Below, one piece after another: positions 44,686 to 63,717 of a stretch of DNA of 64,000 nucleotides. The stretch comes from Macrostomum lignano (lineage: Eukaryota). The stretch is from contig NIVC01003264.1 in NCBI GenBank assembly GCA_002269645.1, positions 17,823 through 81,822 of the forward strand, given 5' to 3'. Position numbers and translations under genes: made by a program. How positions within the stretch are numbered: position 1 is the stretch's first letter; every line of letters starts with the position of its first letter. A model generated the notes under the pieces. The model ran no database searches. It saw only the letters and a program-made list of their open reading frames with translations, and had not been told where the DNA came from.

Positions 44686-46026
44686 CTACAATTTCAAAGG
44701 CAGCAGGCTCAGAAAAAGCGTCAGGGCCAGCGAAGTCAGCAGCTGAGGCGCCTGAACGCAGAGTTGAGCTGCCCCGCTGACCTGACAGAGCTCCCGGTTG
44801 CCATCATGGCAGGTCAACTGGTGAATGGCGATGCCAAGTGGCCAACTGGCTGAGTAGCCCCTGATGCTGTCCGTGATTAAGAGCGTTTGATTATCCGCGA
44901 ACCTGTAGCCTTCGGTAAGCAGAGTTACCACGTAGACACTGTTCATGCAGAGGTACGGCTCGTACTGACCAGTGACTGGTGGATTGACGCACACTGCCCG
45001 AGCTGCTTGGGCTAGTTCGCCGACTTTGACGTTCCCTGGAACCGAGCTGGACAAGAAGCCTGTTCTATTTAACATAAAGGCAGTGTAGTAGAAGGAGCTG
45101 ATGGCCACAAAGTTGCCCACTCTGACCCCGGGCGGTTGGTGCACGGGCACGATACGCAGCGGGATGCGAGCGATCTCAGAGCACAGACGGTGCCGATCGG
45201 AGCCGGCGATGCCAGCTTCGCCTCCCACGTTGATTGAAACTGTGCCAAAGCTGAAGGTGGACCGGTAGGCCGGGTTAAGGCATGGCGAGGTGTACAGGTC
45301 CTTATTTGGTTCGCTACTGTTGTGGCCGAACATGTATAGAGCGGCCTGTGACATACCCAAGCCGAGGTAGCTGTGCTGGTGTAGGACGTAAGACTTTCCG
45401 CGAACGGTTTTGAACACCTTGCGATATTTGTCGTTCGCGTTGTCAGTTTTGGGCACAAAGGTGATCTGTGTAGAGCCGCCGCCGAGGTCCAGCATGCCGA
45501 AAGTTTCACCGCCGGGCTTATCGAAGGAATCCATGAGGAAGTTGACGGCTACCCAACCAAATTCTGCCTCTTCCTGGCCGCTGATGACGCGCACAGCACG
45601 CTTATCAGTGCTGGGCACCAGGAAGCTGGACCGACGGAGAATCTCGGCAACAGCGCGGACGACACGGTCTCGCTGTTCAGGCGTCAGCAGGCGCAGGCCA
45701 GCCGTGGCGCGCACGATGACGCTAGTTTCGGCGTGGTACTTAGTGGGAACTTTCTCAGTAGCAAATTCCATCAACGGCTTGAGGTTCTCACGAAGTCGGG
45801 GAAGTGCATTAGGAAAGGCCGATAGGCCGGGATTGACTTTCTCCTCCTCGAGGCTCTCGATGCGCAGACCAGTGGAGTGGCTGAAGTCGGTGCGGAATGA
45901 AAACACATTGATGCGGGTCCCCGTGCTGCCGGCGTCAAGCACCAGAATGTACTTCTTATTGGACGAAACAAGAGGCGCTGCTGTCGGCAGCAGGAGCAGC
46001 ATCGGCAGGATCTTCGGCAGCAGCAT
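44686..46026 (-). CDS. GDA1/CD39-family NTPDase (ENTPD5/6-like apyrase), intronless
   Basis: All five apyrase conserved regions: DAGSTGTR, ATAGLRLL, SGQEEAEFGW, DLGGGSTQ, ASWPLG. N-terminal signal peptide and hydrophobic C-terminal tail. Confidence 0.93.
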   Translation of the reverse strand: MLLPKILPMLLLLPTAAPLVSSNKKYILVLDAGSTGTRINVFSFRTDFSHSTGLRIESLEEEKVNPGLSAFPNALPRLRENLKPLMEFATEKVPTKYHAETSVIVRATAGLRLLTPEQRDRVVRAVAEILRRSSFLVPSTDKRAVRVISGQEEAEFGWVAVNFLMDSFDKPGGETFGMLDLGGGSTQITFVPKTDNANDKYRKVFKTVRGKSYVLHQHSYLGLGMSQAALYMFGHNSSEPNKDLYTSPCLNPAYRSTFSFGTVSINVGGEAGIAGSDRHRLCSEIARIPLRIVPVHQPPGVRVGNFVAISSFYYTAFMLNRTGFLSSSVPGNVKVGELAQAARAVCVNPPVTGQYEPYLCMNSVYVVTLLTEGYRFADNQTLLITDSIRGYSASWPLGIAIHQLTCHDGNRELCQVSGAAQLCVQAPQLLTSLALTLFLSLLPLKL

Positions 46027-47050
46027 CTTTGCTGTGTAGAGAAAGTTTCTTTCGAAAACGTCCAATGCAGTTGAATTTAGCTAAGCGTTCGGTACAACAT
46101 ATGAACGCATTCCATTGGCCAGGCAATTCCCTGCCACTGCGCCTCTCTGTGAATGGACCAAAGTCATTGCAAATTTCCTTGTGACATTTTCAACATTACG
46201 GTTCACATCACGGGCGTTTCTGCCTGGTTGCGCGCTGGATAAATAATGATAGTAAGCAGCAACATAAAGCTAAATTGTGCCTGCTGCGGTTGGTAGCTCA
46301 GCGATGGGAACTCGACCGAATATCTCGACCTCGGGGTCATAAATTCATAAATTAGCTGGTTAGAGGAGAGTTCCCAGTGCAGTGACAGCTATTAGAGTGG
46401 CTGATCTACGAAAGTGAGGAGCTAGATACTGCATGAGAATTGCACTTGGTCGTCAAATTGGATATCCGAATTAGAATAATCGAGTTTTAGAGCAAATGTC
46501 ACATTTTAAATTGTGCAATTTCCTGTCCAAATTTGTTATTCCGCTTTTGTTGATAACCGACACTGCTGGTATGAACGCTTGCCAAGTCATGCTTTGACGG
46601 GTCCACAAACTCTGTGAATAGACAACTGCAAACTGCAGCAAATTTGAATGCAACACACACACACACACACACACTTACACGAAAGACTTGGAAAGCCTGT
46701 TTATGGCATGAACCTCTTATGTTTATCCATGCGCTAGCCAGCCTCGCCTCTCGAGCTATAGGACTCCAACAACGAATAAAATCGGGCCGTTGTAAACACA
46801 GGCCATGGCTGCATCTGTAATACGCTATTTCCTCAGGTATGAAGCTCAAGGCACTGTCTAAGCCCATAAAACCTGGCTGCTACACTACCAAATCGGCTTG
46901 TCAAAGTAAGCCGTGGAAATAAAGTAAAATTACAGCAATCACTCCATCCTAGATTGACTTTCGCGATCGATTCAACTTCGCTACCTAATTTGTAATTTCA
47001 TAACATGTTCACCTCATCAAACGAAAAACGAGCGCACCTATGCCCCAATA

Positions 47051-48019
47051 CTTCGGGTGTGTCATAAGTAATGTCACTGATGTGAAAACAGACGAACTTG
47101 CAATCGCAGATGAACAAAACTGTACCACTCAACAACATAGAGTCCCCCAATATTAATCACCCTCTGGCAGTGCTCATACAGCTTGTCCACCTCAGCCTGC
47201 AGGTGTTTTTCCTCCAACTGCCATAACCAGTGCAACGCAGCCTGTTTTACCTCTTCATGGTTTGCGAAACTCTTCTTGGAAAATTCAGCCTTCAGCCATT
47301 TGAACAGGAATCTCTTGCAAAAGTTGAAGTCTGGGCCGTAGGGACTGTCAGAGCAGATTCACTCGCCATGCAGGCAGAAAATTCGAAACAGCCTTCAGGT
47401 GTGCAGCCGTGCGGTGTCCATCTGCCACAGAACCTTGTCCAGGTGACATGGATTTGACCGGAGAGTGCACCAGAGGTCTCCAGTGTGCCGGAAAAAGTCG
47501 ATAAAGTACTGGCCATCGACTTTGGTGTTCGGTGGAGTTGTGCAGATGGAGACTCGTTTGTTTGGCGTGAAGGCTACCAGCAGCATGGTCTTCTTGTCCG
47601 AGATGGACTTCCTAGTCACCATCGGCCTGAAGTCCCCAGCTCCCAACCAGCAGCGATTATCTGCCTTGCTGCCCTTGCCATCCAGGTGGAGCCAGCTTTC
47701 ATCCTCAGCAACCAGGCAGTTTAGGATGTCATTCAAGCCCCGGCTGCTAAACACCTTGCGGATCTGCTTGGTGCAGGCGTCTTGTCAAGATTCATGATGA
47801 TTTTTGTTCGCTGCATAGACGATTTTTCATCGCGTTGCACTTGCTAAATCTGCTTGGCGTATTCTTGCGATAACTTGGGCCATAAACAACCTATGCACGT
47901 CTCAAATGCACTGCTATTGCTTCACTAAGTATACTTTGCAGCTACACTACCCACAAGTCCATGTGCCTACATATTTTAGACAGAGGCCTGCAGTGACATT
48001 ACTTATGACACACCCGAAG
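47051..48019 (-). mobile_element. Mariner element, internally deleted, perfect 29-bp TIRs and TA TSD
   Basis: TA|CTTCGGGTGTGTCATAAGTAATGTCACTG...CAGTGACATTACTTATGACACACCCGAAG|TA. Catalytic remnants AEDESW, QMDTARLH, SPYGPDFN...FLFKWLK. 969 bp total. Confidence 0.92.
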
Positions 48020-48548
48020 TAATATAAGTTTCAATTTTTCTGACTGAATCGCAAAAGGTTGAACGTTCGGAACGTTCGGCATGTGTTCAAATAAGAATCG
48101 ATTGGAAGCTGTCAATCACCACGCTGTGGACTTCTACAGTCAGCAATTCTATAGGTCCTTAAGCAAGATAAATTGCACTTTAGAGGTCGTTGGGGCTCAT
48201 ACCCTCGATGGCCATCTTGGCAGAAAGGCGGAAAACCGGAGTTATTTGAGTGCAATAAAGTCTTTTTTCAATACGCACCCAGTTTCCTGCTTTTAGAAGA
48301 AGTTGACGCCACTGTCAAAGAAAAACGATCTGACCCGTACACAAAATGATCAGCACTCATTCGATGGCAAGATTGTGTGAAAAAAGACTGGTCAAGTTAA
48401 TTGAGACATGATTCGAAAGTTTGCTGTCTTTTTTGCTTATTTAGTAATAAAAAATTGCAAAAGCAGTTCAGTAAATTTAATATATTATTTGATTCAATTC
48501 GATTTTAAGATGATGGATTAGAGTTGTCGCTCGTTTTATATTCAATTT

Positions 48549-53148: not shown

Positions 53149-53707
53149 AGTAGTATACGTTTTTTTGACACAAAGCCGATTTCCTTATGGCGAAATACAT
53201 AGTAAGTACAGGCCCAAAAAAATGGCAGAGTCCGAAATTTCATGTGCACGCAGTCTGAAATTCCATGTGCACGCAGTCTGAAATTCCAAGTGCACGCTAA
53301 ATATCTTTTACGCAACGTGATTATTCAGACGAATTGCATATCCACCTGTCCAAAATACAAGTAACCGATTCTAGCAATGGTGACACAAACACACTTCAAA
53401 GGATTCCATTCAAGACAAATTTACTCCAAAGCTATTCACACATTTCAAGTGTTATTGAAATATTGAAAACTTGTGAATATTATCACCCTTTTGAAGAAAG
53501 ATAGTAAATGATCTATTCTTGAGTGCCTATAGAATTTTTGCACCAACTTGAGCAGATGGTTTACAGATACTATGTCAACAACTGCGTCAACATGCTTCTT
53601 CTTTATACTATATATATATACGAACACACTGACACAGAAAATATTAAATAACTTAAACCAAGTTTACATTATACTACTTGTTCAACTATACTTACATCTT
53701 AAGTGAA

Positions 53708-54569: not shown

Positions 54570-54819
54570 AAAGACATTTTTTCTAACTCTTCATAAAATT
54601 TTGCCAGCAATGTGTCCAAGTAATTGCTCTTTTAGTATATATCAAACAAGTCTGTAATCAATAATATAATCTCTATAAATTCATTATTCTAAAAAATTCT
54701 TTCAATTTTATTCGCCATTCATTGAAATTATTTAATTCAATATAAAGTCAATATCTTGTACAGTCATCATTAAACAAAAATTATTAATCCATGCAAATAA
54801 TTTTTTTTTCATACGTTTC

Positions 54820-55520
54820 TTTAGCCATGGTCTGGCTTTTGCCTCAACAGTATGATTTAGCTGTGGTCCAGCTTTTGCCTCAACAGTATGATTTAGCTGT
54901 GGTCCAGCTTTTGCCTCAACAGTTTTTAGCCGTGGTCCGGCTTTTTTGCCTCAGCAGTATGATTTAGCTGTGGTCTAGCTTAAAACTGCATCAACAGTGA
55001 TTTAGCTATAGTCCAGGCTTAACTACCTCAACGATGATTTAGCTATAGTCAAGGCTTAACTGTCTCAACAGTAATTTTAGCTGTTGTCCAGACTTAACTG
55101 CCTCAACAGTGATTTTAGCTGTGGTCCAGGCAACTGTCTCAACAGGGATTTAGCTGTAGTCCGATTAGCTTAACTGTCCAGTTATTTAGCTGTGAGCCAA
55201 GCAGCAGCACCCGTCTCAACAGTGAGAATTAGCTATGGTCAGCTTTACCTCAACTGTGATTTGGCTGCTGTGGTCTAGCATAACTGACTCAACAGTAATT
55301 TTAGCTGTAGTCGTCCAGCTTAACCACCCGTCCAGTTTTATAACCATGGTCCAGCTTAACCACCGTCTCAACGTACAGCGATTTAGTCGTGGTCCAGCTT
55401 AACCGTCTCAACGTACAGTGATTTAGCCATGGGTCTAGTAGCAATTAACCGTATCAATAGTGATTTAGCCGTGGTCCAGCTTAACTGTCTCAACACAGTA
55501 ATTTAGCTTAGTCCAAACAG
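54820..55520. repeat. About 36-bp degenerate tandem array inside the Maverick (GCCTCAACAGTATGATTTAGCTGTGGTCCAGCTTTT)
   Basis: First copies near-identical at 36-bp spacing, diverging progressively 3'-ward. Confidence 0.88.
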
Positions 55521-56165
55521 CATTTGTGTGTCAACTGCACTGACTGCATGCGGTTATAGCAGCGGCAGTCATTATAGTCCCAACAAGCTGCGCGTCGCAG
55601 CATGATAGTGTAACTCTATATAGCTTCTGCTCAATATAGGACTGCAAAAGCTGAGTTACAACTATACCTTTTTCTGTTTGAAAAGTAACACTCTATATAT
55701 AGGTTACTCAAGCAATCTCTTGTCACCGTGCGAGCTAAAAAATTCCAACATGCAAGCAAAACTTTCAATAAATTAATTTCATAGCACCGCGTGCAGCTTA
55801 TTTTTACTCTAAAATCCAAGATTGCTAATTTTTCAAGTCGCAAAATATTTTAATTACATTCTACTTGAGAACAAAACCAATCTAATGAAGCAGCAACCAG
55901 CAGTCTTCTTATTAAACGCTTGCCATCGTGTTACTCTTGCAAATTTATAACTAGTGTGCCTAAGATTCATAAATTTTATTGTATAAAATATGAACCTACA
56001 TTTGCGTAAAATTAGACCTAATCATGCAACCCACCCTAGAAACTTATGCCACCTTTGGCACGCAACAATGTCTTAATCAGCACGCAACAATTAAATTTGT
56101 TTACTAGTTCACAAACAGCATGCAATGCTTGCTATAAATACAAGACCCGAAATGGTCAATTTTTC

Positions 56166-57417
56166 ATGAGCTCAATCATTACAGCAAAAGAAATACTATA
56201 TTCAATTGCTTGTAAGACATGGCAGCTTGCATCAAGACGGAGTCAATTGTACGCTCCGACTCGAGTCCGATTTTTTACGTTGGAGAGCAGTCTACAACCA
56301 CGACTGGTTCGTCCTGCCAGTTTCGATCTATTACGTGGAAACCATCAATCGAGTGTACAAAATGGTACCCAATTATATTGCAAACCAAGGCTCCAATGGA
56401 GCTTTTTCGTGGAATCGCAGAAAGGCCAGAGCTCGATCATCCGTCTTGCAGACACGACTCTCGCGACGCAGTAAGTGTCCAATTTCATCCAGACAGCTGC
56501 GATAAGGAACTCTTCCACTCTCTCCGGTGAGCACCATATTAAATTTATACAATTAATTTTAGGAAACTATATTAATAATTTATATAATGTTTTGCAGTCA
56601 AGTCGAAAAAGGTCTATCGGTCAAGTTGAACGAGATTCAAGATGCTCGACCCTTGGCACGACTAACAAAACCAGCTCATCAGCATGCTAACGACGTCCTC
56701 GAGTTTGTGCCTCAACAATGGCTGGCTATAAAGCCTGCTTACCCTTGTGCCACAATCAGGATCAGCAACGATCATCCACACGGGAAGGAGGTGTCCATTT
56801 CCGATTTCAAAGGTGTCAGCGGTACCTACCAAATGACAGTGCAAGCAACGAGCTTGTATTGTCCAAAAGGCTGCCTCGTCTGGCGCATTACATTCGCTGT
56901 GCGCTCTCTGACACTCATAGAATCTTCCGACAACATGTTGCAGCGCCTCGACATGTTCAAGGGAGTGCTTGCACACCTACCCGCGACCAAGTCAGCAATT
57001 AGAAGCAGGAGTCCGTCCCCAACATCTACCTGTGAGCAAGAAGAAGCAAATGAACAAAGCCTGCAGAATTCAAGCCAGGTGACACCTGCCAAGTCACCTG
57101 CAAAGCGTCGGTCTACCACCACCGTATCGAAGAAGTCGACTACATCGAATGCAGCGCCAGCCTCTATTGAACCGCCGCCTAAAAAGCAAGTTCGAAAACG
57201 CAGCGGTGCAAAACAGCAAAACAATTCTGCCGAAGCTGGTGCAGATGGCACAGACTGGGTGGAGGCTCCACCAGCAAAGATCTTGGTGAGTACACCTGCC
57301 TCTGGAACCAGGGTAGCGTCCAAGGAGACAGCATTTTTAAAGCGTGCTGCTGCGGACGCTACTACAGCTAGCGTGTCTTCATCGGACGACTCGTACAGCA
57401 GCTCTGATGATGAGTAA
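56166..57417 (+). CDS. Maverick ORF, exons 56166-56470 and 56598-57417, about 374 aa; possible OB-fold ssDNA-binding protein
   Basis: A 127-nt GTAAGT...TTTTGCAG intron joins two track ORFs in phase 2 (CA|T). Beta-rich core ending WRITFAVRSLTLIE, S/T/K-rich tail, acidic terminus SSSDDSYSSSDDE. Function is inference; an alternative ATG exists at 56046. Confidence 0.65.
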
Positions 57418-57626
57418 CAAAATTTTGACTAATTTTATCCAAGTTTTAACTAACTTATTCCACTATATTTATCAAATTTTTGGCTAGGGAAATATTATTT
57501 TTTAGGGAAAAGCTCAAAACATTTTTTGCTACTCCTTGTACGCTAACCAGGTTTTGTAATTTAATATTAGAATTTACGATAGTATAGTCATGTTTAACTT
57601 TTCTTATTATTTATTTTCCGTTTTAG

Positions 57627-58184
57627 CGACTTGTCCTATTAATAGTTACTGCGAGTCTGAAGCTGCACCCGTTTGAAAAATTTGATTTAAAGCAGACCAA
57701 ACAGAAGCTACAGACCAGAAACCGGTTTTGCAAACTATTCCTAAGCCGACCAACAATGCTAAAGACAATTTATTCAAATGCTAAAATCCAACTTTATCCA
57801 GCAGGAAAACTAACTATATATGGCTGTAAATCAAATTCTCAGATAGTCTCAGTTTTACGATTTATCAACGACACTATTAATTGTGTAGATTTTGATTCAG
57901 TAAAAATTCAGAGCAGTACCTATGTCGGCTTTATTGGTCATCTTTGGCCAAAATTCGGTTTCTCTAGTCTAAAAAGATATGCAGGCTACTATTCGAATTA
58001 TCTGGTTGGATACGATGCAGAAAATTTCCCACAAGCAGTTTCTGTTAGATCAGCATCAAAACCAAGGCTTTTTTGTAACATATTTTTTTCGAAAAAGTTT
58101 GTTATTATGGGCGTTCAAAACACTCATGAATTGAATAATATTCTTAACCATGTCAAGGATTTTTTAATCTCTGTTAATAACTAA
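57627..58184 (+). CDS. TATA-binding-protein (TBP)-fold protein, 185 aa from the splice acceptor, with no ATG before the first TBP repeat
   Basis: IVTASL...KFDLK ~ IVSTVNL..KLDLK; LYPAGKLTIYGCKS ~ IFSSGKMVCTGAKS; VKIQ ~ FKIQ; YDAENFP ~ YEPELFP; KPRLFCNIFFSKKFVIMG ~ KPRIVLLIFVSGKVVLTG. Confidence 0.82.
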   Translation, partial: RLVLLIVTASLKLHPFEKFDLKQTKQKLQTRNRFCKLFLSRPTMLKTIYSNAKIQLYPAGKLTIYGCKSNSQIVSVLRFINDTINCVDFDSVKIQSSTYVGFIGHLWPKFGFSSLKRYAGYYSNYLVGYDAENFPQAVSVRSASKPRLFCNIFFSKKFVIMGVQNTHELNNILNHVKDFLISVNN

Positions 58185-58407
58185 ACTTAACAAGTAAACA
58201 ATTGCTGTCAAATCGCAGTTGCGATGCATTCTTTTACAAACATTTTGTCTTTTTTTATTTATTTACCAATTGTTTTCTCTAATAGTAAACGTGTCAGCTA
58301 TACCTATAACTAACCAAATCATCATTTTTCTTACAGCCGCAAATGACAAACCGGATCATCTATTAATATTATGCTCGATACGCTCGTTGTCGAGCTAGGT
58401 GCACACA

Positions 58408-59145
58408 ATGCCGCGTGCACAATGCCAAATCTGCAGAAAAAAGTTCAGTAATCAAGCCGAGCTGCATGCTCACTCGCATGGTGCTTGTTTTTCACCGCAA
58501 CGATTACTGACCGGATCGCTGCAAAACCTGATCGAAAACCCACCAGATGGGTGGTCCATCGCTTTGCGCGAGTCAGCTCATCGTGGTCGGGTAAATTTTG
58601 TCGAATTTACTCCCACTCTTGAACAACAAGGCAACAGCTCTGGCGAGTTACTTCCTGGCGAGTTGATTGCGTCTTTAAGAGAACCAATATTTAAAATATT
58701 GGAAAAAATTGGCTCACCCAGTTTATTAATAAGAGTCTGCTTTCACTTGAAAGTGACACTATTTCGACCGAAAACAGCAGCAGACGACAACGATGGCTCG
58801 AGCAGCGAAGAGATCATTTCGGTCTATTTTAATACCAACATTGCGACAATATCATTTGATGAGACGATTGCAAACAGTGACATGCTGTTATCTCCCGAGG
58901 CCTACAATGACTGGTTCGCACGCGTTATTAATCAGTTGTTAATAAAAATTGACAATTTTCAATCTCGAGGTAGTAATTGGCAATATAGAGCAATCGAGCA
59001 GCTAGACTTGATGCTCTGCGTTTATCGCAAAAGCCATGCAAGCACACTGTCAACAAATACGTCCCACGGTGGTGTGGGGGCGGGCGGCGGCAGTGGTGGT
59101 GGTGGCGGCGGTGGTGGTGGTGGTGGTGGCGGCGGTGGTGGTGGT

Positions 59146-59177
<32 letters not shown>

Positions 59178-59508
59178 GCGCGGGGAGTCCGGTCCAGTCC
59201 GGTCCGGTCCAGTCCGGTCCGGTCTGGTTAAGCAGCAATCGTTTAAAGTTCCAGTCTCAATCGGTCGCAAAGCTGGAGCAGTACTGCTTCTAAAGCCGCA
59301 CAGAGCAGTTTAAAGCATCAAGACTATTTAAGAGTCTTACACAAGCGACAACTTGTGTTTTCGCGCATGCAGTCCATTCGTTCTCGAAAACAGAAAGTTT
59401 TTTTTGATGCAACAAAGAAAACTTGCACTAAGCTTCTTCGATACGAAGCGATCCTGGACAAGTTCAATTAATTCGCTACCCTTTGGACACTGGCACTTGG
59501 CTAATTAA
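58408..59508 (+). pseudogene. Protein-primed family-B DNA polymerase, internally deleted (N-terminal ZnF/terminal-protein region plus extreme C-terminus)
   Basis: C2H2-like CQICRKKF.....LHAH; ESAHRGR; YFNT; KIDNFQSRGSNW; poly-Gly; then from about 59292 in other frames LKHQDYLRVL...MQSIRSRKQKVF/LMQQRKLALSFFDTKR......SLPFGHW*. No Exo or Pol A/B/C motifs. Confidence 0.8.
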
Positions 59509-59800
59509 TTAACAATATGCTCTGATCTCTTTTGTTGTACAAAGTAATAGCATGCTATAGAAGACTGTAACCCATCATTAATTTTTTCATTGATCATTAT
59601 TTACAATAAATAAATGATACCGGCATTCGTTTAAATTATAATTTTAGCACTTTTTTGTGTTTAATTATTTGAAAAAGTATATTTTTTATAGTTAGATTCT
59701 CAAGACTAAGCTTGTGTTTGTAGTAGACGTAAATGTAGTGCTATCGTTCATGTTTCAAGAAAAAAAACTTTTTTTTAAACTTTCAGCTACAAGAATCGAC

Positions 59801-60283
59801 ATGAATCCCGAGCAGCAGCAGCAACAACAACTAACTGATCGTAAGCTTTTAGTTGAACGTCTATACGATTCGGCAACGATTCCGACCCGAAAAACTGTCG
59901 GGTCGATCGGGTATGATCTTTGCGCTGGCGTCGATGGTACCATTCCGGCCTACGAGTCCCGGAGTGTGCGAACCGGACTCAAAATTCGCTTACCGCCTGG
60001 TACCTATGGCAGGATAGCGGGACGTTCCAGCATGGCTCTGCACAGCTTATTTGTTGGCGGTGGCGTAATCGACCCCGACTATACTGGTGAAATCTGTATA
60101 GTCTTGTTTAATTACAGTCCGGAAGACTTTGAGTACTATGCCGGGCTCAGTATTGCACAACTGGTTCTGGAGCAGGCCGTGCTTGCTTCAGTCTATGTGA
60201 CTGAAGCAGACAATTCGATTCGGATGATTGAGCCGCCGACCAAGCGGCGCGGCTTTGGCGGCTTTGGCAGCACTGGCCAATAA
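59801..60283 (+). CDS. dut: Trimeric dUTPase
   Basis: All five motifs: GYDL, GRSS, GVIDPDYTGEI, IAQLV, RGFGGFGSTG. Confidence 0.96.
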   Translation: MNPEQQQQQQLTDRKLLVERLYDSATIPTRKTVGSIGYDLCAGVDGTIPAYESRSVRTGLKIRLPPGTYGRIAGRSSMALHSLFVGGGVIDPDYTGEICIVLFNYSPEDFEYYAGLSIAQLVLEQAVLASVYVTEADNSIRMIEPPTKRRGFGGFGSTGQ

Positions 60284-60398
60284 GTATAATAATAATAATA
60301 AACTGATTTTTTTCTTTGGTGATTGGTGCACTATGCGAGAGCTTTGTAAATACTATAAGCAATTTTAAAAATTTATGCCTAAAATATATGTTGTAAAA

Positions 60399-60818
60399 AT
60401 GTCTCCAGCGAAAGATCGAGGTTTTAAAAAGAAAAAGAAGAGCATTCGTAAAAAGAAGAAATCTATTAGAAAGATTAATAAAAAGCAACAAGGTTATGGT
60501 GTCGTAAATTGGTTAATTAATCATTTACCATTTGAAGCACATTTACCCGGCGGATATCAGTTTTGTGGTCCAGGTACGCAACTGCAAGCTAGGCTAGCAA
60601 AAGGACAACGAGGAATTAATCGGCTTGACAATTTGTGCATGCTTCACGACGTGGCCTATGATAAAAATTCTGACGTGCAAGAGAGGTTAAAAGCTGATAA
60701 GCTATTAGAATCTGGTGCACGAGAGATTGCCCACGATCCGTCTACTGGTTGGAAAGAAAAACTAGCTGCGAAGTTGGTTACCAAGGTTATGCAAGTTAAG
60801 CAACGCTTTGGTGCTTGA
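60399..60818 (+). CDS. Parvovirus-VP1u-like phospholipase A2 virion protein with basic N-terminus
   Basis: Ca-loop YQFCGPGT, catalytic HDVAY, ADKLL; K/R-rich N-terminus. Alternative ATG at 60375. Confidence 0.9.
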   Translation: MSPAKDRGFKKKKKSIRKKKKSIRKINKKQQGYGVVNWLINHLPFEAHLPGGYQFCGPGTQLQARLAKGQRGINRLDNLCMLHDVAYDKNSDVQERLKADKLLESGAREIAHDPSTGWKEKLAAKLVTKVMQVKQRFGA

Positions 60819-60820
60819 AA

Positions 60821-61510
60821 ATGCAGCAGCCATACAATATGCAACTAGCTCACGATTCTACATTTATTATTGCTGGACCTTCAAACTCGGGTAAAACTGA
60901 ATGGACGTTGCGTTTGTTGACTGAACGAAAAGAATTATTTGATAAAAAACCGTGCCGTCTTGTTTGGTGCCATGGATCAAGTTTGAAACCAGACGATCAA
61001 CAACGAATTAGAACATGCTGGCAAAAAAGCGGTCTTGACCCTATTGTTTTTGTACCCGAATTCACACCACAGATGATTAATCGTTTTTTACCACACGATT
61101 TGGTTGTTGTTGACGACTTGCAAAGCGAGATTGCTAAGTTGCCAGAATTTACTAGTATGTTTACAAAGCATGCGCATCATATCCCTTTGACTTGTCTGTA
61201 CCTTTGTCAAGGTCTTTTTAACAAGTCTGATCCAGAAGCACGCATGCGAAGTTTATCAGCTAGTTATATTTGTCTAACTCGTAGTGTGCGCGATCGAACC
61301 ACAGTTGAACATCTCGGTCGACAAATGTATCCGCGTAATAGTAGGTTTCTAGTGAATGTGTATGAAGACGCAACAAATAACAAACCTTTTTCATATTTAT
61401 TCATTGACCTGCGGCAAGTGACACCAGATTTTTTACGATTGAGAACAGGAATATTTTCTGGTGATGAACAAGTTGTCTATACTCGTGAATGTGATGCAAA
61501 GTTTGTGTAA
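60821..61510 (+). CDS. A32-like (FtsK-HerA) genome-packaging ATPase
   Basis: Walker A GPSNSGKT, Walker B VVVDD, FTKHAHH...YLCQGLF, PFSYLFIDL....PD.LRLRTGIF. Confidence 0.95.
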   Translation: MQQPYNMQLAHDSTFIIAGPSNSGKTEWTLRLLTERKELFDKKPCRLVWCHGSSLKPDDQQRIRTCWQKSGLDPIVFVPEFTPQMINRFLPHDLVVVDDLQSEIAKLPEFTSMFTKHAHHIPLTCLYLCQGLFNKSDPEARMRSLSASYICLTRSVRDRTTVEHLGRQMYPRNSRFLVNVYEDATNNKPFSYLFIDLRQVTPDFLRLRTGIFSGDEQVVYTRECDAKFV

Positions 61511-61567
61511 TATTATTATAAGCAAATTATAAACTGTTGTCAATATTAGTTTGTGTTTTATTTCAAA

Positions 61568-62557
61568 ATGAGTTTTTACGTTTTTTTGCCGTCAAACGAT
61601 ATCAGTTACGAAACCAACTCGCCTAATGAATTTCGAGTGCGACTAACTGAACCAATAAATTTATTGAACGGATTCTTCGAGGTTGCACTAGTTGAATTAC
61701 TGTGCCATGGAGCAATTACGACGCCAAATGCTCATCGTGAGCGTCGATTTGAAGTTCCATATTTTGCGGACATTGACTCAATAATACGATTAAAGAAAAA
61801 CTATTGGGGTCGTGTTTGGGCAGAGGCAGACTTGGATGCTTACGTTTCCTGGCAACCGTCTGGTACAGATGAAAAATTTGCCTGGCTTTTACGAAATTCA
61901 GGCGAAAAAACTATTGGATTAGAACTACCAGTTACATTTATGGACGCTTTCAAATTTGACTCTTGGAAGAAACTTTCTGGACTTGTCTCGGAAAAATTAT
62001 CAAAACCTGCCGCTGGTAGTGTACAACCACCGGATGGTTCATACTTGGATTTGATAAAAAGTCTCGACAATACTCTAGCGCTAGTACCTGAGAACTATTA
62101 TGTTTTTTATTGTGTTCTATCGCCTGGTGAAGCTATACGACTTGTTTCGCATGGAGACTATCTTCGAAAAACGGAAGGAGAAGTGTACATCAAAGTACAC
62201 CAATATTGGTTGAGAAATCGTGTTTGGCGCATTAACAAAACCTACTTGGATGCTGTGCTACCTTCTCCGATGCCTAGTAAAACGGTTTACATGTACTGTT
62301 ACACAGATATAATCGAGTATCAAGCAGTGGGAAGTACATCAGTACCGTTGCTTCGAGTTGTGGAACTCCAACAAAAGAAAAACGGAGAACTTATACGCGA
62401 TAGCAGTGCATTGCAAACACCCTACTACTTGAAAACAAATCGACAACAAATTCACGAGATTTCGATTCGACTATCGGACCAGCGCGGAAAACCGTTTAAT
62501 TTTGATCCGGGAGCACACGTTGTTGTCGTACTGCATTTTAAACATAGGTCGGACTAA
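61568..62557 (+). CDS. Minor capsid protein (penton, single jelly roll)
   Basis: FYVFLPSN...N.PNEF.VRL..PI.L...FEVALVE N-terminus; YCYTDIIEYQAVG...VPLLRVV...Y......I.I.L.DQ.G.PF.F...VVVVLHFK C-terminus. Confidence 0.9.
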   Translation: MSFYVFLPSNDISYETNSPNEFRVRLTEPINLLNGFFEVALVELLCHGAITTPNAHRERRFEVPYFADIDSIIRLKKNYWGRVWAEADLDAYVSWQPSGTDEKFAWLLRNSGEKTIGLELPVTFMDAFKFDSWKKLSGLVSEKLSKPAAGSVQPPDGSYLDLIKSLDNTLALVPENYYVFYCVLSPGEAIRLVSHGDYLRKTEGEVYIKVHQYWLRNRVWRINKTYLDAVLPSPMPSKTVYMYCYTDIIEYQAVGSTSVPLLRVVELQQKKNGELIRDSSALQTPYYLKTNRQQIHEISIRLSDQRGKPFNFDPGAHVVVVLHFKHRSD

Positions 62558-62613
62558 TTTATAAGCAAAGATTAATTGTGTAATAGAAAATTTTGTGAAT
62601 TTGTTTTGTAAGA

Positions 62614-63018
62614 ATGAGCGAACTAACAGAAAAAGGAAAACAAAATGCTCGCTCATTGTGTCAGTGTGCTTTTTTACTACAAATTGTTTATCGGCTAAAG
62701 CATCCAAAGCAGAGAAAAAGTTTTTTACAAACACTTTCAGAGTCGGAGATACGATGTCTAGTAGACTTTCTGTTTAATATTATTAGTGGACGTATTAAAA
62801 TTAGTAACTGTAACAAAAGACGACTTGAGAAGCATCGCAGATATATACGCCAGCTTTTGGAACAGAAGACTCCAATTACTGCAAAAAGGAAAATACTTGT
62901 CCAACACGGAGGATTTTTACCTTTTTTGGCTCCAATTATTGCCGCTCTACCTGCTATAAGCACTGCGCTTGGGATAACGTCTGGAGTAGTTGGTACCGCG
63001 CGGGAGCAGCGAATTTAA
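62614..63018 (+). CDS. Small basic Maverick virion protein with an adenovirus pX-like hydrophobic C-terminus
   Basis: KQRK.FL.......I.CL.....NI..G.I......K..L.KH...IR.L...K.....KRKILVQHGGFLPFLAPIIAALPAI. Confidence 0.8.
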   Translation: MSELTEKGKQNARSLCQCAFLLQIVYRLKHPKQRKSFLQTLSESEIRCLVDFLFNIISGRIKISNCNKRRLEKHRRYIRQLLEQKTPITAKRKILVQHGGFLPFLAPIIAALPAISTALGITSGVVGTAREQRI

Positions 63019-63051: not shown

Positions 63052-63717
63052 ATGCGAACTAACGAGAGTAGTAGTTTTCAACGAATGTATCTAGTACCTG
63101 AATCTGTGTATCAATCTGCATGTCAAGGTGCAGAGCAAGGATCGTCACCAACTGCTGAGACACCTCGAAAAACTGAAGTTTTAGACGCACCGCAAGATGC
63201 TCTGGCAAAAAATATGGTGGAAATGAGAGACCAAATGGATAACTTGGACAAGGAAATGGAAAAGGAGCCAAATTACACAGCTCAATTGAAACGAAGCAGA
63301 TTGGAAGACAAACTTTTAAAATTGCGCAAAGTCTATCGCACTGGAGACGAGGACAATCTGTCACTTGTTCGCAAAGGGACTACTGTAAGAAGTTCATATG
63401 CCAGCGAATCAAGGGAAATTCCTAAAGTTTTTTTACCACGTTTCGAAGCTCTCGCTCAAAACCTATTTTCGGACATGGACAAGAATGCAGAACCAATGCT
63501 GGCTAATTTGACTGATGCCGAGATACAAGATCTCATGGAATATGTTGTTCGAGACAGACCGCTTAAGCGACACGAGACTCAACCGCCTAGTGGACTAAAA
63601 ACATTTTTAGACTTTCTTCGAAAACGTGGAATCGCAGCAAACCAAATCGGGCGTCATGTACGAAACGAGCTAATGTCTGCTCCAAAACTGTTGCAAAGGA
63701 GGATCTTATCTGTTTGA
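63052..63717 (+). CDS. Conserved Maverick/adintovirus hypothetical protein
   Basis: RMYLVPE N-terminal motif, LDKEM, and I.DL...V.R.R.....P.G...FL..L....I....IG C-terminal motif recurrent in Maverick ORFs. Confidence 0.7.
   Translation: MRTNESSSFQRMYLVPESVYQSACQGAEQGSSPTAETPRKTEVLDAPQDALAKNMVEMRDQMDNLDKEMEKEPNYTAQLKRSRLEDKLLKLRKVYRTGDEDNLSLVRKGTTVRSSYASESREIPKVFLPRFEALAQNLFSDMDKNAEPMLANLTDAEIQDLMEYVVRDRPLKRHETQPPSGLKTFLDFLRKRGIAANQIGRHVRNELMSAPKLLQRRILSV

What the first reader, a model, noticed from the sequence alone, without database searches (positions are those of the whole stretch)
57627..58184. A Maverick/adintovirus-like element encodes its own TBP-fold protein
Seen: a 185-aa frame aligning by eye over both TBP repeats (KFDLK, GKLTIYGCKS, KIQ, YDAENFP, KPR, IFFSKKFVIMG), lying between a spliced accessory ORF and pPolB inside the element. 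Established: TBP-like genes occur in some giant viruses (NCLDV), but Mavericks are usually described as relying on host transcription; I do not know of a Maverick TBP. The repeat-2 intercalating Phe pair is kept (ENFP, IFFS), repeat 1 has Tyr and lacks the other Phe, and both Asn of the QNIV/QNMV motifs are lost (LLIV, QSST). Inference: a virus-specific promoter-recognition factor or a decoy for host TFIIA/TFIIB/TAFs, with altered DNA specificity.
Basis: partly seen in the sequence, partly recalled or inferred. Interest (0 to 1): 0.9.

Follow-up and report, generated by a model that had tools for sequence, protein, structure and literature searches.

The report
Maverick's own TBP, spliced, with matching box
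A virus-like Maverick element of a flatworm carries its own altered TATA-binding protein, likely spliced onto an upstream early protein, and most of its particle-building genes sit behind a non-standard TATA-like box that this protein likely reads as a built-in late-gene switch.

Summary
The TBP fold is real: Pfam E 2e-7, AlphaFold pLDDT 92.5, TM 0.7-0.76 to TBPs. It is no stand-alone 185-aa gene: the frame has no start codon and begins at a phase-0 splice acceptor kept in six diverged Maverick lineages. All six have a matching phase-0 donor inside the upstream early gene orfA, predicting a 517-aa orfA-TBP fusion; that junction was not seen in 8 runs. The exon is under purifying selection. It keeps the C-lobe phenylalanines and TFIIB-contact acids but has a polar DNA face and no basic N-lobe patch. 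TATAAG(C/T)A stands before most structural genes (22 sense, 0 antisense, 0.6 expected); a second Maverick group pairs a different TBP with CTTAAGAA; a family without detected TBP lacks the box. Best reading (0.65, untested): a herpesvirus-like late-gene TBP. A TBP label exists in one adintovirus paper's figure legend. This scan noted TBP-plus-box before, in this and other genomes; the splice fusion and a spliced leader on pPolB RNA were not in the notes I saw.

The parts
57627..58184 (+). TBP-fold exon, 185 codons plus stop, no own start codon
   Evidence: 22 copies identical in protein, the window's own included, among 83 matches of 97 candidates
57600..57626 (+). Polypyrimidine tract and TAG splice acceptor, phase 0
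   Evidence: same position before the first Arg in six lineages; intact in 29 of 29 near-identical copies where the exon start was found, of 30 loci examined
57286..57291 (+). Internal phase-0 splice donor (GTGAGT) in orfA exon 2 at K-x-L|V-S; predicted intron 57286-57626
   Evidence: 12 of 12 orfA frames from six lineages; K, L, V, S invariant in a variable region; junction not seen in RNA contigs
56133..56140 (+). Canonical TATA box before orfA (predicted early promoter)
   Evidence: TATAAA or TATATAA before the first gene in all six lineages printed
56219..56526 (+). orfA exon 1
   Evidence: joint in 3 of 4 runs
56598..57417 (+). orfA exon 2: folded N-part, low-complexity linker, acidic tail; short isoform 375 aa. 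Possibly a single-strand DNA-binding protein (lead only)
58331..58336 (+). Acceptor used for spliced-leader trans-splicing before pPolB
   Evidence: one contig in 1 of 8 runs carries 23 nt of the host leader before 58336; leader matches PMC8629364; leader genes with donor in 3 of 3 array loci fetched
58408..59313 (+). pPolB remnant (zinc finger N-part, poly-Gly), most of the gene deleted
   Evidence: longer copy L054 hits DNA_pol_B_2
59801..60283 (+). dUTPase, with a pyrimidine-CAG acceptor at 59781-59786
60354..60361 (+). TATAAGCA box before the phospholipase A2-like gene (60375-60818)
60821..61510 (+). P-loop packaging ATPase (label from motif and position; recalled); no box within 250 nt
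61517..61524 (+). TATAAGCA box before the putative minor capsid gene (61568-62557; label recalled, no Pfam hit)
62560..62567 (+). TATAAGCA box before the protein X-like gene (62614-63018, Adeno_PX E 7e-7)
62955..62962 (+). TATAAGCA box before the ORF 63052-63717; at this place in this lineage only
53149..53252 (+). Left terminal inverted repeat, 104 bp, starting AGTAGT
   Evidence: 96% match to the right ends of three other copies; end motif as in PMC8097293

Best explanation
This is a TBP-fold exon conserved across the Mavericks of a flatworm, likely spliced onto the upstream early gene orfA, and its product likely acts as the element's own late-gene TATA-binding protein. Steps: (1) host TBP would start the early unit at the canonical TATA box before orfA (inferred). 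(2) The unit orfA - TBP - (kinase) - pPolB - dUTPase is processed by cis-splicing (intron 1 shown) and by the host spliced leader (shown once, for pPolB). (3) Use of the internal donor would give a 517-aa orfA-linker-TBP protein beside the 375-aa orfA (inferred from conserved sites). (4) The kept C-lobe (F134, P135, F153) would grip the 5' TATA half, and the altered, polar N-lobe (P42, Q55, Y57, T63) would accept the G and C of TATAAG(C/T)A that host TBP handles poorly (inferred). (5) D130/E132 would recruit host TFIIB and polymerase II, while loss of the basic N-lobe patch would evade Mot1, NC2 and TAF1 (inferred).
For: Fold. Conservation: six lineages at 28-65% identity, same gene order. Selection: of 28 pairs, 22 are saturated at silent sites; the four between-lineage pairs with an estimate give dN/dS 0.14-0.21 (two of them near saturation); group 2, 15 of 15 pairs 0.15-0.41. 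Splice sites: acceptor, donor in 12 of 12 frames against 24 of 69 Val-Ser pairs that look donor-like elsewhere. Box: TATAAG(C/T)A 22 sense, 0 antisense, 0.6 expected in 5 loci; TATAAGC is the top 7-mer de novo; TATAAG within 250 nt of 8 of 9 late-block genes in L063 and of neither pPolB nor dUTPase; none in window 55500-59700; mostly 43-58 nt before the ATG, as fits a TATA box. Co-variation: group 2 has CTTAAGAA (30 sense, 0 antisense, 1.2 expected in 10 stretches), no group-1 box, and lacks P191, which PMC12529657 says favours T at position 1. A family with capsid-type genes and no TBP hit (L129/L130) has no such word within 200 nt of 6 of 6 genes. Polar swaps parallel KSHV ORF24.
Against: No binding, start site or timing was measured; 'early' and 'late' are inferred from gene type. 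No contig showed the orfA-TBP junction (donor lay inside the laid stretch for only 4 of 8 runs) or a leader on the TBP exon; a search for longer fused proteins found none (weak). One of four intercalating Phe and both Asn are lost, whereas herpesvirus vTBPs keep all. The ATPase has no box; one lineage (L107/L109) lacks it before PZ. In group 2 the box also precedes the TBP gene itself, so a strict early-to-late order does not hold there. The first stirrup acid is N or S in 4 of 4 outside group-1 homologues. The motif was picked on the same loci it was counted on, lineages share descent, and the TBP-less control is one family. Host TBP or TRF2 could read the box.
Confidence: 0.65

Rival explanations
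1. Same function, other start: the host spliced leader, which ends in AUG, is trans-spliced to the phase-0 acceptor and supplies the start codon of a stand-alone 186-aa TBP. Both routes may coexist.
For: The leader ends in ATG and can give a start codon in flatworms (PMC12582326, passage); the element uses the leader before pPolB; the acceptor is in frame in six lineages; group 2 and 3 TBPs are stand-alone genes.
Against: A conserved in-phase cis donor lies 259-619 nt upstream in all six lineages; PMC8629364 says trans-splicing is favoured where no donor lies upstream; no leader seen at 57627 in 8 runs.
Confidence: 0.2
2. Host TBP or TRF2 reads the box, and the viral TBP does something else, such as binding the termini or origin with the orfA domain during replication.
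For: The gene sits among replication genes and is fused in frame to a deoxynucleoside kinase in one lineage; orfA resembles viral DUF2738/DUF5871 clusters (lead); solved structures of plant TBP on G-variant boxes exist (titles).
Against: Box sequence changes with the TBP type, and the TBP-less family lacks it; TFIIB acids are kept; the exon is intact in a family whose examined copies lost pPolB but kept the late block (4 of 5 copies).
Confidence: 0.17
3. Decoy that titrates host TFIIB or other TBP partners without reading DNA.
For: Lost Asn pair and F99; kept stirrup acids.
Against: The concave face has its own invariant residues (Q55, T63, T98, N151 in 6 of 6 lineages); the TFIIA/TAF1/Mot1 patch is gone; a decoy does not explain the box.
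Confidence: 0.1
4. The box is a 3'-end or termination signal of the preceding gene, not a promoter.
For: Several boxes lie at or just behind the upstream stop codon.
Against: Others lie inside coding sequence 124-166 nt before the capsid ATG; distance is steadier to the next ATG; the word starts with TATA.
Confidence: 0.07
5. A one-off captured, neutrally decaying piece of host TBP.
For: None beyond low identity to host TBP (14-21%).
Against: Six lineages, purifying selection, three Maverick groups, tree position away from host TBP.
Confidence: 0.01

Closest known systems
Beta/gamma-herpesvirus vTBP (KSHV ORF24 with the TATT late box; PMC12529657: abstract, outline and first half of Results read; EBV BcRF1 and HCMV UL87 recalled)
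   Same: Viral TBP fold inside a longer protein, polar DNA face, variant TATA box before late genes, host polymerase II assumed.
   Different: ORF24 keeps four Phe and both Asn, lacks the TFIIB acids and needs five more viral factors; this protein lost F99 and both Asn, keeps the acids, and no partner factors were found. No sequence link was tested.
Cellular TBP/TRF family (PF00352)
   Same: Two-lobed saddle, F190/P191/F207, E188.
   Different: F99P, F116Y, N69 and N159 lost, T124 and T215 replaced, basic helix-2 patch lost; 14-21% identity to host TBP.
TBP label in MELD viruses with adintovirus-like PolB (PMC8502044, section 3.4 read whole; preprint 10.1101/697771, passages)
   Same: A TBP-like gene in a Polinton-related element.
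   Different: Only a legend label; which virus is not visible to me; no function, box or splicing in the text read.
NCLDV TBP-like proteins (PMC7221094, passages; Atlas clusters)
   Same: Viral TBP fold; N-lobe regulatory patch not conserved.
   Different: They come with viral TFIIB and lose the host-TFIIB signature; no TFIIB-like gene was seen in this 15-19 kb element (Pfam scans of most, not all, ORFs).
Mavericks/Polintons/adintoviruses (PMC8097293, passages)
   Same: AGTAGT terminal repeat, pPolB, rve integrase, ATPase, protein X-like gene.
   Different: One-strand layout with an early block, own TBP, spliced leader use.

Membership tests
TBP fold family (PF00352) | Profile score above curated cut-off | tested here: met
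   31 bits against 22.9
TBP fold family (PF00352) | Two-lobed saddle structure | tested here: met
   pLDDT 92.5; 44 PDB matches at E<=0.001, those listed all TBP-containing
Canonical cellular TBP | Four intercalating Phe | tested here: not met
   P42, Y57, F134, F153
Canonical cellular TBP | Asn pair N69/N159 and Thr pair T124/T215 | tested here: not met
   L4, S96, Y65, M161
Canonical cellular TBP | Acidic TFIIB stirrup (human E284/E286) | tested here: met
   D130/E132 in 6 of 6 lineages; first acid is N/S in 4 outside homologues
Canonical cellular TBP | Basic N-lobe patch for TFIIA/TAF1/Mot1/NC2 | tested here: not met
   one Arg at five positions in the window protein, none in the other five lineages
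Herpesvirus-type late vTBP | Variant TATA box before late genes | tested here: met
Herpesvirus-type late vTBP | Four Phe and both Asn conserved; TFIIB acids absent | tested here: not met
Herpesvirus-type late vTBP | Binds the box and is needed for late transcription | not testable with these tools
   needs binding and knock-down tests
Herpesvirus-type late vTBP | Works in a six-protein viral complex | not tested
   no profile search for these factors was run
Maverick/Polinton | pPolB and rve integrase | tested here: met
   L054 DNA_pol_B_2 E 6e-20, L063 rve E 4.5e-8; window copy has pPolB deleted
Maverick/Polinton | Terminal inverted repeats with AGTAGT | tested here: met
Maverick/Polinton | Jelly-roll capsids and maturation protease | tested here: inconclusive
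   conserved ORFs in the expected places, no Pfam hit; labels recalled
Viral OB-fold SSB (for orfA) | OB fold | tested here: inconclusive
   Atlas 0.92-0.93 to clusters with 10-15% DUF2738/DUF5871; half-domain model pLDDT 61; no fold search obtained; no Pfam, PHROGs or PDB hit; link of these DUFs to SSBs is recalled

The most novel reading that the evidence does not exclude
Mavericks run their own early-to-late switch: an alternatively spliced early gene gives a single-strand DNA-binding protein and an SSB-TBP fusion, which tethers a private TBP to replicating genomes and starts host polymerase II at group-specific boxes (TATAAGCA, CTTAAGAA, TATAAGAA) that changed together with the TBP, while the host spliced leader resolves the early operon.
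Probability: 0.25. Interest if true: 0.9.

Novelty: new variant of a known kind. Interest (0 to 1): 0.72.

Why it matters
How animal Mavericks switch on their particle genes is open, and whether they make particles at all is still debated (PMC8097293, abstract start). A matched TBP and box gives a direct test in a transgenic model animal and a marker for when and where particles could form. It would be another viral route to late transcription by TBP mimicry, apparently through host TFIIB, in a genome under 20 kb. Several natural TBP-box pairs in one genome also offer a set for learning how TBP specificity changes.

Tried and rejected
I first favoured the leader-AUG start; the conserved cis donor demoted it. 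Homologue searches with the single frame (0 of 36 candidates) and for longer fused forms (0 of 8000) found nothing. Viral contig scans: A2 none of 38, capsid none of 8, P0101 none of 4, P0066 one distant large-virus contig; the metagenome scan gave one short match in an unrelated-looking contig, so no context outside this genome was obtained. No run is on record as RNA; lack of cover between the exons in some runs is not used as evidence. A 15-nt word shared by two lineages before different genes was absent from the other four. Of 58 genomic matches to the leader, the first six fetched lacked the donor; three array copies had it. The complex prediction with host TFIIB was not available; fold searches in the viral library and for the orfA model were not obtained. 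One search crashed and was rerun. PC4-plus-pPolB elements without capsid genes (L135-L140, L147) gave no TBP hit and were not used as a control. Twelve of 167 proteins (fragments, chimeric models, tandem duplicates) were left out; 40 were chosen by hand for the tree.

Full report
Observation. The frame 57627-58184 (+) is open for 185 codons and holds the quoted motifs. Pfam gives TBP at 31 bits, E 2.2e-7; all 7 PDB sequence matches up to E 10 are TBPs or TBP fusions, one at E<0.001. AlphaFold on a 12-row alignment gives pLDDT 92.5 and the TBP order of strands and helices; Foldseek gives 44 matches at E<=0.001, the best at TM 0.72-0.76. The Atlas returns only TBP clusters (recognition value below its reliable range).

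Setting. The host is a Macrostomum flatworm, judged from names on homologues and from the spliced leader. The element starts at 53149 with a 104-bp inverted repeat and AGTAGT. Order in the family: orfA, TBP exon, pPolB, dUTPase, phospholipase, ATPase, minor capsid, protein X-like, an ORF, integrase, an ORF, major capsid, protease (capsid and protease labels are recalled from position, no Pfam hit). The window copy lacks about 3.16 kb of pPolB. The own genome gives 83 matches of 97 candidates, 22 identical in protein (some may be duplicated chromosome copies, but three right flanks differ). They fall into six lineages at 28-65% identity, five with a deoxynucleoside kinase after or fused to the TBP.

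Selection and origin. Of 28 pairs, 22 are saturated at silent sites, all pairs with the window among them (pS 0.75-0.86, pN 0.38-0.47); four between-lineage pairs give dN/dS 0.14-0.21. A family search found two more Maverick groups with stand-alone TBP genes (150 of 330 candidates scored, 20 fetched). A YPxG word at the F116 site marks 19 Maverick-type proteins and none of the other 136 listed. In a quick tree of 62 rows, the three groups and four unnamed proteins form one branch (SH-aLRT 87, long branches, not tested further), apart from host TBP. So this is an old viral lineage, not a fresh capture; its source is not resolved. All named close hits are Macrostomum.

Gene structure. No lineage has a conserved start codon; in the window the first ATG is codon 44. 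All six have a pyrimidine tract and YAG directly before the first Arg. All 12 orfA frames examined have GT(A/G)AG(C/T) in phase 0 at an invariant K-x-L|V-S, 42-50 codons before the stop; elsewhere 24 of 69 Val-Ser pairs look like this, so about 0.002 for six lineages if independent. Both sites are intact in 29 of 29 near-identical copies. This predicts 517 aa for the fusion and 375 aa for short orfA. Contigs of runs guessed to be RNA show intron 1 in 3 of 4 runs and the leader before pPolB in 1 of 8, but no joint at the TBP acceptor in 8 of 8. The fusion is therefore inferred, with the leader-AUG start as rival (PMC12582326, passage). What orfA is stays open: an Atlas lead to viral DUF2738/DUF5871 clusters, an acidic tail, and a weak half-domain model suggest a single-strand binding protein; the DUF-SSB link is recalled.

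Surfaces. Against yeast numbering: F190, P191, F207 and E188 are kept, E186 is Asp; F99 is Pro, F116 Tyr; L114, V122, V161 and L205 are Gln, Thr, Thr and Asn in all six lineages; the basic helix-2 patch is gone. PMC7221094 (passages) ties the acids to TFIIB and the patch to TFIIA, TAF1, Mot1 and NC2. PMC12529657 shows polar swaps at these sites in KSHV ORF24 and says P191 favours T at box position 1, which places the C-lobe on the 5' half; that the N-lobe covers the 3' half is established knowledge, recalled.

Candidate target. orfA has a canonical TATA box in all six lineages. The structural genes instead have TATAAG(C/T)A: 22 sense, 0 antisense, 0.6 expected in five loci; four sites in the window, none in the early block, one on the + strand of the 53-kb host part. 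In L063, TATAAG lies within 250 nt of 8 of 9 late-block genes. Group 2 has CTTAAGAA instead (30, 0, 1.2) and lacks P191; group 3 has TATAAG(A/C) (3, 0, 0.4; one copy). One family without a TBP hit has no such word before 6 of 6 genes. The 5' half of the group-1 box is standard and the 3' half is not, which matches the kept C-lobe and changed N-lobe. Limits: motif chosen on the same data, shared descent, one control, and the group-2 TBP gene has the box itself.

Literature. Six searches (open-access library only) found TBP with Polintons only as a figure-legend label in PMC8502044 and its preprint. Term look-ups found no TBP or TATA in 10.64898/2026.06.19.733378, PMC11131425, 10.1101/2023.08.22.554363, 10.64898/2026.10.13.758929 and PMC8097293, and no TBP in 10.1101/2022.07.28.501842. 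PMC8629364: parts 1-2 of 4 read. Supplements and figures were not seen and may hold TBP annotations; Repbase was not searched. Earlier notes of this scan, looked up after I had found the box, report TBP with a box in this genome and in others (unchecked AI notes, 8 of 27 shown for this genome); none of those shown mentions the splice fusion.

Verdict. It works like a herpesvirus late vTBP (inferred, 0.65) but is not a member of that family, nor a canonical TBP. New variant of a known kind; interest 0.72.

Noticed in passing
window 58336: A contig carries the host spliced leader at the acceptor before pPolB; kinase and dUTPase genes have similar acceptors in most lineages. No paper on leader use by Mavericks came up (listing only).
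   Followed up: partly
L039:3940-5319, L040, L033:5345-6007: A deoxynucleoside kinase is fused in frame to the TBP domain in one lineage, is a separate overlapping ORF in four, and is absent from the window family.
   Followed up: partly
window ~59306; L051, L059, L063: The same 3.16-kb pPolB deletion is in 4 of 5 window-family copies examined: a non-autonomous family that spread and kept TBP and the late block.
   Followed up: partly
L078-L096, L112-L114: Group 2 Mavericks: stand-alone TBP, PC4-like first gene behind a canonical TATA box, CTTAAGAA boxes.
   Followed up: partly
L093: A third TBP type with TATAAGAA-like words; close homologues in unnamed ENA, Logan and JGI records.
   Followed up: partly
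L129-L134: AT-rich Maverick family without detected TBP; A-rich leaders directly before the ATG and a galactose-binding fibre gene.
   Followed up: partly
L135-L140, L147: Many short elements with a PC4-like gene and pPolB but no capsid-type ORF seen in the stretches fetched.
   Followed up: no
L097-L102: Leader-like sequences without splice donor at repeated loci, perhaps retroposed or carried by another repeat.
   Followed up: no
window 54818-55513: Array of 36-43 bp imperfect repeats in the left arm of the element.
   Followed up: no
window 44686-46026 (-): Intronless host apyrase (GDA1/CD39, E 8e-68).
   Followed up: no
window 47049-48021: Perfect 31-bp inverted repeat around 911 bp, likely a small DNA transposon.
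   Followed up: no
P0056, P0066, P0101, P0131: Unnamed short TBP-likes with the same Arg-Pro change at F99 that group with the Maverick proteins; hosts unknown.
   Followed up: partly
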